From NCBI RefSeq assembly GCF_003334405.1, contig NZ_QOWM01000015.1: a DNA stretch of 64,000 nucleotides, one strand, 5' to 3'. This document shows, one piece after another, positions 23,101-26,100 of the stretch. The position numbers were made by a program. Every line of letters starts with the position of its first letter. The stretch's first letter is position 1. Source of the stretch: Escherichia coli. Its GTDB lineage: Bacteria > Pseudomonadota > Gammaproteobacteria > Enterobacterales > Enterobacteriaceae.

Positions 23101-26100
23101 AAATACGCTTCGTGCAGAAGTTCAGAAAAATGGGGTTAGCTGTCAGCACAAATACGCTTCGCGCAAAAAAAAATCAGGAGGCTAAGTTGATCGGGAAAGC
23201 GAACACAGATACATGATTTACCCGTTTGCTGACTACGGCTCACGCCGGGACCCTTCGGAAAAACCCTTTCTGCTTCAGCGAGTGAGTGCTGCGGGCACTC
23301 AGAGGCGCTGCCAGGGAGACAAAATTAAGTTTTTCAACTGTTTGGTAAAAATAATTAACATTTATAGGTAGTCGGGGCGTAAGCCAGTGCGTAGCACGCT
23401 CTCAAAAAATATTCCTGTGGGTTTCTTATCTGCAATAGGGAAATAACTCAGATAATTGATATATGAAAAAACAATACAATCGGGAAGACACAACTTTAGC
23501 ACAGTAAAAGCTATTTGTATTTATGAGGAATAAAATATATATGAATAATAAAATATTTTTATTTTGCTATTGATTTTAATTTTTAAGATGATAGTACTTA
23601 ATTATAAAAACAAAATAATGGAGGAAATTATGAGTGCTATTAATGTGTTATCTCAGGAGGAAAAATTTATACATGTTGTTGATAAATTTATAACCCATAA
23701 TCACAACGGCGTTAATAACAATGTCTTTTATAAAAAACTTTATGTTCTCTTCGCCGGATATCATCTGAAGTATTTTTATTCACGGGCGCAATATCGCAAT
23801 TCGTGTTATCACGTTGATAATATCATGCAGATGTTTATGGGTGTCGTTTCTACCCTGAAGACCCCTCTGCTCAGGCAACTCGCAAACAGTGACACATTGC
23901 TGCATTGCCTGAATTCGCTCGTGAATTATATTTCAGGCAATCTGGATGAAGCAGAGCACATTTATGCTGATTTACTGGCACAGTATGAAAAGAAACGCAT
24001 TGCACGTTCTCTGGCTTATACACCACCAGGATCCGTGGTCAGGAAAAGACTGTGAGACATCGGAAATGCGCCGGACAAGGCAGAGTATGGCAGAGTGACA
24101 TAAAAGCAGTCGTTTCCCGCAAGATATTACCGGGCATTAAAAAGGCAGGATCCACCGATTTGGTGTCCTGCCTGGCGGGATTATTTTATTGTGGTCTTAC
24201 TTATCAACGACCTGCCAGCCATCATCTGTTTTGACCAGCTTGACAGCCGCTGTGCGTTTTTCGTTATCGACAACAGCTGTTACATTGCATTTATAGCTTT
24301 TATCCGATAGTTTTTCGCAGTCGTGTTTTTTGACTGATTTTAACTTCCGCAGCATGTCAGGCGTGATATCGTTTCTCGCTATGGATTTAACGATGGCATT
24401 CGTCTGCTCCACGACCTTATTCATCGCAGTGTAAATATCCTGCTCAGACGGTTCACTGGTGCAGCCGGTCAGCAAAAAAATGGACGCAATGAGTGTGGTA
24501 AATGCATATGTTTTCATAAAATAATCCCAGACGGTAGAGTACGTTATTGAAAAAGGCCGGTTTTCATCTTGCTGTTGTTTTCAGAGAACGTCCACTTGCT
24601 GACGGTTTCGCCTTTAAATTCGATTTCCAGCGTTTTGGCCTGCGTCTGTGAACCCCCGGTCAGCAGTCCAATCACGGGAATGAATGTGGTGGCATCAAAC
24701 TGATTGTTGTCCATCGAATAAGTCCATTGTTCATTGCCACTATCAAGTGTAGTTTTGGTTTCGGGCTGACCGAATGCGGTAATGATTTCTGATTTCGTTG
24801 TTTTATTTTTGATGATTTTCGACTGCAGACTTTGTGATGTTTCTTTTTTTAGATGCTGGTTGCCTGATGTTGAACAGCCAGAAATAAGTAAAGAAGAAAT
24901 AAAAAACACAGAAATCATGAATCTGTTCATAAGTTTTCTCATATTAATTTTTTATGTTTGCGGTGGTGTGAAATTAATATCATCTTATAAAAACAACTCT
25001 GTCTGCATATTTCTTTTTAATAATGCAGATAAGAATAATGACGCTGGCAAAAAACGTAATGACTGAGGCAGGAGTGCTGCCGGTCAATGAAAACACTAAC
25101 CAGGCGAGAGCTAATGCCACGAATTGAAACAGGAATGCCACACTGAGTGGACTTTCACCATAGGCCACTTTTGCATGGCAACCTTTGCAAACCCGCACAC
25201 CGTGTGGGCTTTGTGTAAAGCAGAAAGGGCAGCTAATCGTTTTATTATCCATCATGACTCCGTAGCCTGATTTAAGGTGATGTATTTTTGAACATTTTCG
25301 ATGAATGAACTGCTTTAGTAAAATTGCTTGTACCGATCGATGGATCTCAGGCGATAGGTTATATCTATTATAGCTAGATTATCGATCTATAAAAACGATC
25401 GATATCTTATTGACTATCACTAAAGTATGGACTAGCTAACTTATGGTGCAGGATGGTTGTTGTTTTTAAATGATTGTTCTTTATTGGTATTTGTTGTCAT
25501 GGGATGACAGGGTGTCAGAATATGTAGGTGGAGGATTTGGTGGAAAGGATGTGCAGTGGCATGTAACAGAGACATGCCTCTGCGCCTGAGAAGTGCCACA
25601 ATATGGACGAGCAATACAAGCCATGAATACAGACGACGCTGGCGGGGTATCTGACGAGCTGTATTGTGCAGATTGCTCCTGAGCTGGATGATACCCACTG
25701 TCTCCTGTTGTCTTTCCAGACGAATTTTTTCTTCAAGCTGATGGATTTTCTCCAGAATCGTTTCCCGGTTTGCAGCCTGCTCTTCAGACTCGCATGATGG
25801 CACTGGCACTGGCACTGGCACTGGCACTGGCACTGGCGCGGTTGTAGGTTCTATTGGCCTCTGGGCTTCTTTCAGTAAACTCAGATGCTCAGGCGTAAAA
25901 TCAATCAGTGCTTGCAGGGAAGACCAGCCATATTTTTTACCCAACTGAGATGCTTTAAAGGCAATACCCTGGTATTGAAATGAAAATCCACTCATTTTAC
26001 CCGTAGTGGCGATATTGGGTTTGCAGGTCACTCCTTCCTGTTCCAGTAAGCGAACAAAGGTTAGTAAATCGGGATGGTGTGTTAATGCATTGTCGAGCAG

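What the first reader, a model, noticed from the sequence alone, without database searches (positions are those of the whole stretch)
23221..23330. Short GC-rich, hairpin-containing segment embedded in AT-rich intergenic DNA
CCCGTTTGCTGACTACGGCTCACGCCGGGACCCTTCGGAAAAACCC...GAGTGCTGCGGGCACTC stands out in composition from its surroundings and contains at least one clean hairpin (GAGTGC-TGCGG-GCACTC). It may be an sRNA or a gene remnant near the iteron module.
Basis: seen in the sequence. Interest (0 to 1): 0.3.

Follow-up and report, generated by a model that had tools for sequence, protein, structure and literature searches.

The report
Conserved hairpin DNA element in island origin
The GC-rich hairpin segment is real and is the best-conserved piece of a non-coding control region inside a mobilizable E. 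coli genomic island that carries a plasmid-type replication gene; it most likely acts as structured DNA at the island's origin, not as a small RNA or a dead gene.

Summary
The sequence, its GC excess and the TGAGTGC-N5-GCACTCA hairpin are at the stated coordinates. The hairpin alone is unremarkable: 67 equally good hairpins occur in the window and the folding z-score is about -1. What makes it real is conservation. It is "Block 1" (23236-23318). With a second block (23374-23398) it is the most conserved stretch of a 2-kb region across five diverged island lineages. Identity is 0.81-0.89, against 0.66-0.69 for the flanking genes and about 0.3 for neighbouring spacer. Stems are invariant, loops vary, indels break every reading frame, and no Rfam family, promoter, terminator or compensatory pair supports an RNA gene. 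The element lies in a 1-kb gap upstream of a 187-aa gene that is homologous to the replication initiators of pHW126-like small plasmids (pIGMS31, pIGRK). The host is an integrative mobilizable element with an AlpA-like gene, a relaxase and a MobC-like gene, found in E. coli, Citrobacter, Salmonella, Yersinia and others. My best reading is a cis-acting single-strand-origin (ssi/sso-like) DNA signal, with moderate confidence. An oriT component, a protein operator and an sRNA remain rivals. Homology to the plasmids' own ssi palindrome was tested and not supported.

The parts
23236..23318 (.). Block 1, the finding itself: hairpin H1 (CGGC 23236-23239 / GCCG 23244-23247), an A-run GGAAAAA, and nested hairpin H3 (outer CAGCG 23276-23280 / CGCTG 23306-23310; inner TGAGTGC 23283-23289 / GCACTCA 23295-23301).
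   Evidence: Sequence and folds. Mean pairwise identity is 0.81 (core 23272-23310: 0.89) across five lineages. Stems are invariant and loops variable in 40-42 distinct sequences. Covariance model R1 scores 101 bits here and 97 bits in a Yersinia island.
23374..23398 (.). Block 2, which always accompanies Block 1: two mini-hairpins, GGC-GTAA-GCC (23376-23385) and GTGC-GTA-GCAC (23387-23397).
   Evidence: Identity 0.82. Loops vary: GTAA/GTGA/GGAA/GATA and GTA/GAA/AAA. The fifth pair of the second hairpin is A-T in 13, G-C in 5 and G.T in 2 sequences, but unpaired in about 21. It co-occurs with Block 1 in every true relative, separated by a variable spacer of 55-80 nt.
23404..23435 (+). Semi-conserved motif after Block 2: AAAAAATATTCCTGTGG followed by a T-run (K56 lineage: ATAAATATCCGTAGAAGGTTTTTT). 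It is a candidate nick region if this is an oriT.
   Evidence: Alignments; identity 0.59. The resemblance to the MOBP nic core ATCCTG is recalled from memory and was not tested.
23032..23165 (.).
   Evidence: They are absent from the K56 and Yersinia lineages, and identity is 0.27, so they are not part of the conserved core.
22982..23020 (.). Hairpin C: GAAGCC...GGCTTC enclosing an inner GCGCAA/TTGCGC-type stem.
   Evidence: Conserved at 0.73. There is a compensatory change to GAAGTC...GACTTC in the K56 lineage. The DNA fold z-score is -2.4. It lies about 390-435 nt upstream of the rep start, roughly where the related plasmids carry their ssi palindrome.
22855..22888 (-). CR-like pyrimidine block (- strand GGTTTCTTATTTCTTTAT...TCTTTTATCTTGC).
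   Evidence: Near-invariant in five island sequences. It gives the best local match to the TTCTTA-repeat block of the related plasmids, at the same distance from the rep ATG (about 250-295 nt). The score is only about 2 sd above shuffles.
22027..22590 (-). 187-aa winged-helix protein, a homologue of pHW126-family plasmid replication initiators.
   Evidence: BLASTP gives 47% identity, E 7e-55, to the 199-aa protein of a 2.8-kb two-gene plasmid; 40%, E 1e-30, to a pIGMS31-type RepM; and 29%, E 5e-13, to a pIGRK-type Rep. Pfam matches to HTH_36, Phage_rep_O and Rep3_N are weak.
23630..24055 (+). 141-aa conserved protein of unknown function, divergent from rep across the gap.
   Evidence: Annotated CDS in RefSeq relatives. 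No family was found in Pfam, NCBIfam, PHROGs or PADLOC.
25441..27074 (-). Mobilization operon: a MobC-like 135-aa gene (26667-27074) and the relaxase (25441-26670).
   Evidence: Pfam Relaxase PF03432, E 3.5e-22. NCBIfam matches to MobP-type TraI are weak. The nearest plasmid relaxases are about 43-50% identical over the N-terminal 60% of the protein, among them pBRST7.6 (43%), which MOB-suite types as IncQ2/MOBP.
19307..20641 (+). Island backbone genes: a DUF6387 protein (19307-20152) and an AlpA-like excisionase/regulator (20435-20641).
   Evidence: RefSeq annotation and PHROGs excisionase families. The same order, with a tyrosine integrase, is seen in the intact Yersinia island.

Best explanation
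Block 1, together with Block 2, is a cis-acting DNA signal in the replication and transfer control region of an integrative mobilizable element. I propose that it works in single-stranded form. The excised island becomes single-stranded either during replication driven by its pHW126-type Rep or on entering a recipient by conjugation. The invariant stems would then fold into hairpins that host proteins (primase, primosome or RNA polymerase) recognise to start synthesis of the complementary strand. That makes it an ssi/sso-like single-strand origin. Shown: the element is non-coding, under strong purifying selection, made of hairpins with invariant stems and free loops, and sits upstream of a Rep homologue. 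Inferred: that it acts as DNA, that it acts when single-stranded, and that it primes synthesis.
For: 1. Conservation exceeds that of the flanking genes and collapses in the spacers on both sides. 2. Stems never vary while loops do, and no compensatory pairs occur. This fits sequence-specific recognition of a folded or duplex DNA site better than an RNA held together by pairing alone. 3. The adjacent gene is a homologue of pHW126-family initiators. The REP modules of those plasmids carry an ssi-like palindrome upstream of the conserved region, the iterons and rep; it is dispensable for replication, but its loss causes multimers and instability (PMC6854812; bioRxiv 10.1101/2022.12.05.519187). 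4. Read in the rep direction, Block 1 has the same layout as the plasmid palindrome: a long interrupted hairpin, then an RAGGGTT-type tract, then a short GC hairpin followed in some lineages by a T-run. 5. The second Block 2 hairpin reads GCGAAGC or GCGTAGC, a motif I recall as an unusually stable DNA mini-hairpin found in phage origins (memory, not tested). 6. A functional sso in an integrative element has a precedent in ICEBs1 sso1 (PMC4595007).
Against: A covariance model of the plasmid ssi does not find Block 1. A covariance model and an HMM of Block 1 find nothing significant in the plasmids. So homology to the known ssi is unsupported and the resemblance is only at motif level. Block 1 lies about 650-730 nt from rep, whereas the position equivalent to the plasmid ssi is occupied by hairpin C. 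The active strand is unresolved: the few one-sided changes give G.T on the + strand, but a Rep-linked sso would be expected on the rep-sense (-) strand. Folding energy is not exceptional. No experiment bears on it.
Confidence: 0.35

Rival explanations
1. Blocks 1 and 2 are the island's origin of transfer. Relaxase and accessory proteins bind the hairpins on the + strand and nick in the TATTCCTG/TATCCG motif 20-25 nt downstream of Block 2. The hairpins enter the recipient last and serve to terminate transfer.
For: The region upstream of the mobC-relaxase operon, the usual place for an oriT, conserves only a promoter, so the oriT must lie elsewhere in the backbone. Hairpins followed by a conserved T/C-rich motif match oriT anatomy. 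One-sided stem changes give G.T on the + strand, the strand carrying the candidate nick. Related relaxases are typed MOBP, and I recall the MOBP nic core as ATCCTG. Block 2 visibly resembles the ColE1 oriT (GTCGGGGCG.AGCC...CGTAGC).
Against: The ColE1 resemblance does not exceed shuffled controls. The candidate nick motif is only 0.59 conserved and differs between lineages. The hairpin stems (3-7 bp) are short for an oriT inverted repeat. The site is about 2 kb from the relaxase gene. A second strongly conserved non-coding block lies directly beside the relaxase gene (25290-25420, identity up to 0.91, with a covarying inverted repeat) and is an equally good candidate.
Confidence: 0.25
2. The blocks are double-stranded binding sites (operators or enhancers) for the Rep protein, the AlpA-like regulator or the 141-aa protein, and control replication or the divergent promoters.
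For: Invariant sequence without covariation is what protein-read duplex DNA looks like. pHW126-family Reps bind several distinct origin and promoter sites and regulate their own genes (PMC6854812). The blocks lie between two divergent conserved genes.
Against: The blocks are 230-400 nt from the 141-aa start and more than 640 nt from the rep start, far from both likely promoters. Free variation confined to hairpin loops, with both arms fixed, points to folding rather than a simple duplex site.
Confidence: 0.15
3. Block 1 encodes a small regulatory or mobilization RNA, comparable to the sgm-sRNA that Salmonella genomic island 1 needs for transfer.
For: It is a compact, highly conserved, hairpin-rich intergenic segment. 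Loops of the GNRA type occur: GTAA/GTGA/GGAA in Block 2 on the + strand, and GTGA/GAAA/GTAA in H1 on the - strand. One-sided changes keep G.U pairs on the + strand. An essential sRNA encoded beside an island oriT has a precedent (PMC9299015).
Against: No Rfam hit at E up to 1. No promoter-like site upstream and no terminator after it on either strand (and the sequence). None of 21 pairs shows a compensatory change, and the outermost helix breaks in one lineage. The folding z-score is only -1.1. No ncRNA is annotated under it in the listed RefSeq genomes.
Confidence: 0.15
4. It is a decayed gene fragment or a chance GC-rich patch with a chance hairpin.
For: The single-sequence fold is not significant and such hairpins are common in the window. 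A 52-codon ORF spans it in this window.
Against: It is more conserved than the neighbouring genes across five lineages and several genera. The ORF is destroyed in close relatives.
Confidence: 0.03

Closest known systems
The ssi-like palindrome of pHW126-family plasmid replication modules (pHW126, pIGRK, pIGMS31)
   Same: It lies in the non-coding region upstream of a homologous rep gene and in the same orientation relative to rep. The architecture is GC-rich hairpins in AT-rich DNA: a long interrupted hairpin, an RAGGGTT tract, then a short GC hairpin. The plasmid element is a cis-acting accessory signal rather than a gene (PMC6854812).
   Different: No detectable sequence or structure homology. 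The plasmid hairpin covaries freely (11 of 13 pairs) whereas the island stems are invariant. Block 1 is several hundred nt further from rep, is paired with a second block, and sits in a chromosomal island rather than a 2-3 kb plasmid.
ICEBs1 sso1 and the single-strand origins of rolling-circle plasmids
   Same: A structured, orientation-specific, non-coding DNA signal in an integrative element that must convert single-stranded DNA to duplex after transfer and during replication of the excised form (PMC4595007).
   Different: The host phylum and the replication protein differ. No sequence similarity was sought or found. Function here is only inferred.
Origins of transfer of MOBP/ColE1-superfamily mobilizable plasmids
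   Same: Short hairpins upstream of a conserved pyrimidine-rich motif. The island has a PF03432 relaxase and a MobC-like partner. Block 2 visibly resembles the ColE1 oriT.
   Different: The similarity is not statistically supported. The site is not adjacent to the mobilization operon. The nick site is unknown, and a rival conserved block lies next to the relaxase gene.
sgm-sRNA of Salmonella genomic island 1
   Same: A small conserved element next to the transfer functions of a mobilizable island (PMC9299015).
   Different: SGI1 uses a tyrosine-recombinase-type relaxase and a transcript that has been demonstrated. Here no promoter, terminator or transcript evidence exists.

Membership tests
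Any curated RNA family (Rfam 15) | A score at or near a family's gathering threshold | tested here: not met
   No match over 23200-23450 at E up to 1. A whole-window gathering search finds only tmRNA, a tRNA, the Phe leader and RyfD.
Independent sRNA gene | A promoter upstream and an intrinsic terminator downstream on one strand | tested here: not met
   No promoter-like or terminator-like site brackets 23220-23330. The T-runs present are not preceded by a stable GC stem in all lineages.
Independent sRNA gene | Base pairs maintained by compensatory change | tested here: not met
   None of 21 pairs has a change on both sides. Stems are invariant and the outer helix breaks in one lineage.
Independent sRNA gene | A discrete transcript | not testable with these tools
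   No expression data are available.
Protein-coding gene or remnant | A reading frame kept among relatives | tested here: not met
   The 52-codon ORF stops after 4-6 codons in Citrobacter youngae, E24377A, Superficieibacter and the L034/L043 metagenome lineage (to which the Yersinia copy is close). Indels of +1, -2 and -1 nt lie inside it.
pHW126-family REP module (the whole locus) | A Rep protein homologous to RepM, RepR or pHW126 Rep | tested here: met
   E 1e-30 to a pIGMS31-type Rep, 5e-13 to a pIGRK-type Rep, and 7e-55 to the Rep of 2.8-kb plasmids.
pHW126-family REP module (the whole locus) | A conserved region (CR) plus four 20-22-bp iterons directly upstream of the rep promoter | tested here: inconclusive
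   A CR-like TTCTTA-rich block lies at the matching distance from rep, but the score is only about 2 sd above shuffles. Only two loose 44-bp-spaced repeats occupy the iteron position.
pHW126-family ssi palindrome (Block 1 itself) | Sequence and structure match to the plasmid ssi | tested here: not met
   The plasmid-ssi covariance model R2 gives no hit at Block 1 (best hits in the window have E of about 0.5 and lie elsewhere). The reverse searches are also negative.
pHW126-family ssi palindrome (Block 1 itself) | A position immediately upstream of the CR | tested here: not met
   Block 1 begins about 350 nt beyond the CR-like block. Hairpin C occupies the equivalent place.
pHW126-family ssi palindrome (Block 1 itself) | Loss causes multimerisation or instability; primes complementary-strand synthesis | not testable with these tools
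   Requires plasmid genetics or an M13 ssi assay.
oriT of a MOBP-type relaxase | An inverted repeat 5' of a conserved nick motif on one strand | tested here: inconclusive
   Hairpins followed by TATTCCTG or TATCCG are present. The motif is only moderately conserved (0.59), and the nic consensus used for comparison is from memory.
oriT of a MOBP-type relaxase | Significant similarity to a characterised oriT | tested here: not met
   The best local alignments to ColE1 do not fall on its oriT and do not exceed shuffles. blastn against 72,556 plasmids gives no match.
oriT of a MOBP-type relaxase | Site-specific nicking and mobilization in cis | not testable with these tools
   Requires mating and nick-mapping experiments.

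The most novel reading that the evidence does not exclude
Blocks 1 and 2 define a previously undescribed two-part single-strand origin (or combined sso/oriT signal) that is specific to a widespread family of Enterobacteriaceae mobilizable islands. These islands have captured a pHW126-type plasmid initiator. If so, they replicate as plasmid-like circles after excision, and the element is needed for their establishment in new hosts.
Probability: 0.2. Interest if true: 0.55.

Novelty: new variant of a known kind. Interest (0 to 1): 0.35.

Why it matters
Islands of this backbone are common in E. coli, Klebsiella, Enterobacter, Salmonella, Citrobacter and Yersinia, and they carry cargo such as a retron and restriction-modification genes. 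How they replicate and transfer has, as far as my searches show, not been described. Pinning down the one non-coding element that selection holds most tightly, next to a plasmid-type initiator, gives a concrete handle for two tests: whether these islands replicate autonomously, and where their transfer starts. For general genome annotation it is a modest result: an uncatalogued cis element, not a new kind of biology.

Tried and rejected
- **Public nucleotide collections.** Megablast and blastn of the segment and its flanks against the plasmid and phage collections gave nothing. tblastn of the 141-aa protein against plasmids also gave nothing.
- **Literature.** Full-text searches for four sequence strings from the blocks found no paper. 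Strings from the plasmid ssi returned only unrelated papers.
- **Intrinsic terminator on the - strand.** H1 plus a T-run exists only in the K56 and Yersinia lineages. The T-run after H3 lies about 20 nt from the stem. Rejected as a conserved feature.
- **XerCD/cer-like resolution site.** Block 2 resembles a XerC arm (GGTGCGTA), but there is no XerD arm. This was judged by eye against sequences recalled from memory; rejected.
- **ColE1 replication-origin resemblance.** The only exact shared stretch is the 12-mer CCTTCGGAAAAA, at chance level.
- **Separating the Rep and relaxase modules.** I looked for recombinant islands, but every relative examined carries the whole backbone, so co-occurrence cannot assign the blocks to either module.
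- **The truncated copy in E. coli WS4437A-1.** It has an IS3-family transposase gene about 90 nt beyond the break and lacks the genes between there and the ankyrin gene, so it is most likely an IS-associated deletion and is uninformative.
- **Solved structures.** The search was uninformative for the relaxase and showed only a generic winged-helix match for the Rep.
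Full report
**Observation.** The quoted sequence is at 23221-23330. 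GC reaches 0.55 in a 100-nt window there, against 0.17-0.35 in much of the surrounding 1-kb gap. The hairpin is TGAGTGC (23283-23289), loop TGCGG, GCACTCA (23295-23301). It is nested in CAGCG (23276-23280) / CGCTG (23306-23310). A second small hairpin, CGGC-TCAC-GCCG, lies at 23236-23247. On its own this is ordinary. The window has 67 perfect 7-bp hairpins, against 29 +/- 5 in shuffles. The fold z-scores are -1.1 and 0.2 (RNA, + and - strand) and about -1.3 with DNA parameters.

**Where it lies.** The window is E. coli chromosome between ileY/ypjA and ssrA. The segment sits in a non-coding gap (22591-23629). On one side is a 187-aa gene on the - strand (22027-22590). On the other is a 141-aa gene on the + strand (23630-24055). 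Further right are three small genes, a PF03432 relaxase (25441-26670) and a MobC-like gene (26667-27074). Further left are an AlpA-like gene and a DUF6387 gene.

The same gene order recurs in other E. coli lineages, some next to mutS with a tyrosine integrase and cargo such as retron Eco8. The core of it, the 141-aa gene with both blocks upstream, also recurs in Citrobacter, Phytobacter, Pseudocitrobacter, Superficieibacter and Salmonella diarizonae. An intact Yersinia island shows integrase, DUF6387, alpA, rep, the gap, the 141-aa gene, relaxase and a restriction-modification cargo. This is a family of integrative mobilizable elements.

**Conservation.**
- The 141-nt segment matches in 182 of 5426 complete E. 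coli genomes, whereas the 601 nt around it match in 107. So it is conserved beyond its flanks.
- Alignments resolve two conserved blocks: Block 1 (23236-23318) and Block 2 (23374-23398). The spacer between them is poorly conserved and varies from 55 to 80 nt.
- Across five lineages, mean pairwise identity is 0.81 for Block 1 (core 0.89) and 0.82 for Block 2. The rep and 141-aa genes score 0.69 and 0.66, and the adjacent spacers 0.27-0.34.
- A pattern scan of metagenomes returned 43 further true copies, all with both blocks, plus two chance hits.

**Coding and RNA tests.**
- The 52-codon ORF through the segment is cut after 4-6 codons in relatives 79-95% identical. Indels of +1, -2 and -1 nt lie within it. 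It is not coding and not a decaying remnant.
- Rfam finds nothing at E up to 1.
- No promoter-like or terminator-like site brackets the segment.
- In a 12-sequence alignment none of 21 predicted pairs has a compensatory change. Hairpin stems are invariant while loops vary (TGCGG/TGTGG/TTTGT and TCAC/TTTC/TTAC/ATAC), and the outermost helix breaks in one lineage.
- In Block 2 the loops vary (GTAA/GTGA/GGAA/GATA and GTA/GAA/AAA). Only the fifth pair of the second hairpin changes: A-T, G-C or G.T in about half the sequences and unpaired in the rest.
- Invariant arms with free loops suggest a folded or duplex site that proteins read by sequence.

**The neighbouring gene.** The 187-aa protein has only weak Pfam matches (HTH_36, Phage_rep_O, Rep3_N). 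It is nevertheless clearly homologous to the sole non-mobilization protein of 2.5-3 kb enterobacterial plasmids:
- 47% identity, E 7e-55, to a 2.8-kb Enterobacter plasmid protein;
- 40%, E 1e-30, to a plasmid typed Col(IMGS31);
- 29%, E 5e-13, to one typed Col(IRGK).

These are the pHW126-like plasmids. Their REP modules are described as an ssi-like palindrome, a conserved region, four iterons and rep. The ssi is dispensable for replication, but its loss causes multimers, raised copy number and instability (PMC6854812; bioRxiv 10.1101/2022.12.05.519187; PMC2831885). In the plasmids I fetched, the palindrome is a 13-bp hairpin with strong covariation: 11 of 13 pairs change on both sides, and none of 500 shuffles reaches the observed score. 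The island keeps a TTCTTA-rich block (22855-22888) at the same distance from rep as the plasmid conserved region, though the score is weak.

**Is Block 1 the island's ssi?** Read in the rep direction, Block 1 shares the plasmid element's layout: an interrupted hairpin, an RAGGGTT tract, and a short GC hairpin with a T-run in some lineages. Formal tests fail, however. The plasmid-ssi model does not hit Block 1. The Block 1 model and HMM hit nothing significant in the plasmids. The place equivalent to the plasmid ssi is taken by another conserved hairpin (22982-23020), which shows a compensatory change and a fold z-score of -2.4. I therefore claim a functional analogy only, not membership.

**Is it the oriT?** The region upstream of the mobilization operon conserves only a promoter, so the oriT lies elsewhere. 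Block 2 is followed by TATTCCTG/TATCCG and a T-run. One-sided stem changes give G.T on the + strand. The visible resemblance of Block 2 to the ColE1 oriT is not significant. A second strongly conserved non-coding block lies beside the relaxase gene: 25290-25420, identity up to 0.91, with an inverted repeat TATCGATC-N9-GATCGATA that changes compensatorily in Yersinia. That block is an equally good oriT or operator candidate. All relatives carry the full backbone, so co-occurrence cannot decide between modules.

**Verdict.** This is a real, selected, non-coding cis element of an island origin region. My probabilities are:
- single-strand origin (ssi/sso-like) DNA signal, by analogy with the pHW126 ssi and ICEBs1 sso1 (PMC4595007): 0.35;
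- part of the oriT: 0.25;
- duplex operator: 0.15;
- sRNA: 0.15;
- chance or remnant: 0.03.

The kind of element is known. This version, and a pHW126-type initiator inside a chromosomal mobilizable island, appear undescribed in the searched literature.

Noticed in passing
window 25290-25420: A strongly conserved non-coding block lies between the relaxase stop and the 91-aa ORF, with identity 0.70-0.91 across lineages. It holds CGATCGAT-type palindromes and an inverted repeat TATCGATC-N9-GATCGATA that becomes TATTGATC...GATCAATA in Yersinia. It may be an operator, a 5' UTR element or the oriT.
   Followed up: partly
window 22982-23020: A nested hairpin GAAGCC...GGCTTC shows a compensatory change (GAAGTC...GACTTC) in the K56 lineage and a fold z-score of -2.4. 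It sits where the related plasmids have their ssi palindrome.
   Followed up: partly
window 23032-23165: Each of the three 49-bp-spaced repeats contains CGCTTCG(C/T)G. Two of them read GCGAAGC on the rep-sense strand, and the same heptamer occurs in the pIGMS31-type plasmid ssi (L071). The repeats are absent from the K56 and Yersinia lineages.
   Followed up: partly
window 22027-22590 and loci L068-L075: A pHW126-family plasmid initiator is embedded in a chromosomal mobilizable island. Many public contigs of about 2.6-2.9 kb encode 44-49% identical homologues together with a MobV-type relaxase.
   Followed up: yes
L070 2686-2773, L068 2186-2273, L065, L066: The small plasmids carry a nested hairpin at the 3' end of the mob gene (GCCGC..GTGGTGT-N5-ACACCAC..GCGGC). 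Its shape matches Block 1's H3, but the Block 1 model scores it at only E of about 0.1.
   Followed up: no
window 30369-39432: A separate element lies next to ssrA. It has a P4-type integrase (38059-39432), a large serine recombinase (36220-37782), two ParB-like genes (34441-36230), a RelA/SpoT-like gene (32483-33388) and a 704-aa gene with no family match.
   Followed up: partly
L004 1073-4460; L076 328-1885: Cargo differs between copies of the island: retron Eco8 with its effector in E. coli 64EVA, and BamHI-like restriction genes in Yersinia enterocolitica. The backbone appears to act as a carrier of defence genes.
   Followed up: no
PLSDB records OX345049.1 and OX345050.1 (L016): Two linear 'plasmid' records of 3.6 kb from one Salmonella assembly carry the island's rep and its relaxase, MobC-like and ankyrin genes. 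They look like chromosomal island contigs filed as plasmids.
   Followed up: no
window 27150-27195: An inverted repeat GGTATACC-N11-GTATACC lies upstream of the MobC-like gene. It is present in this lineage only and is not conserved in the relatives.
   Followed up: partly
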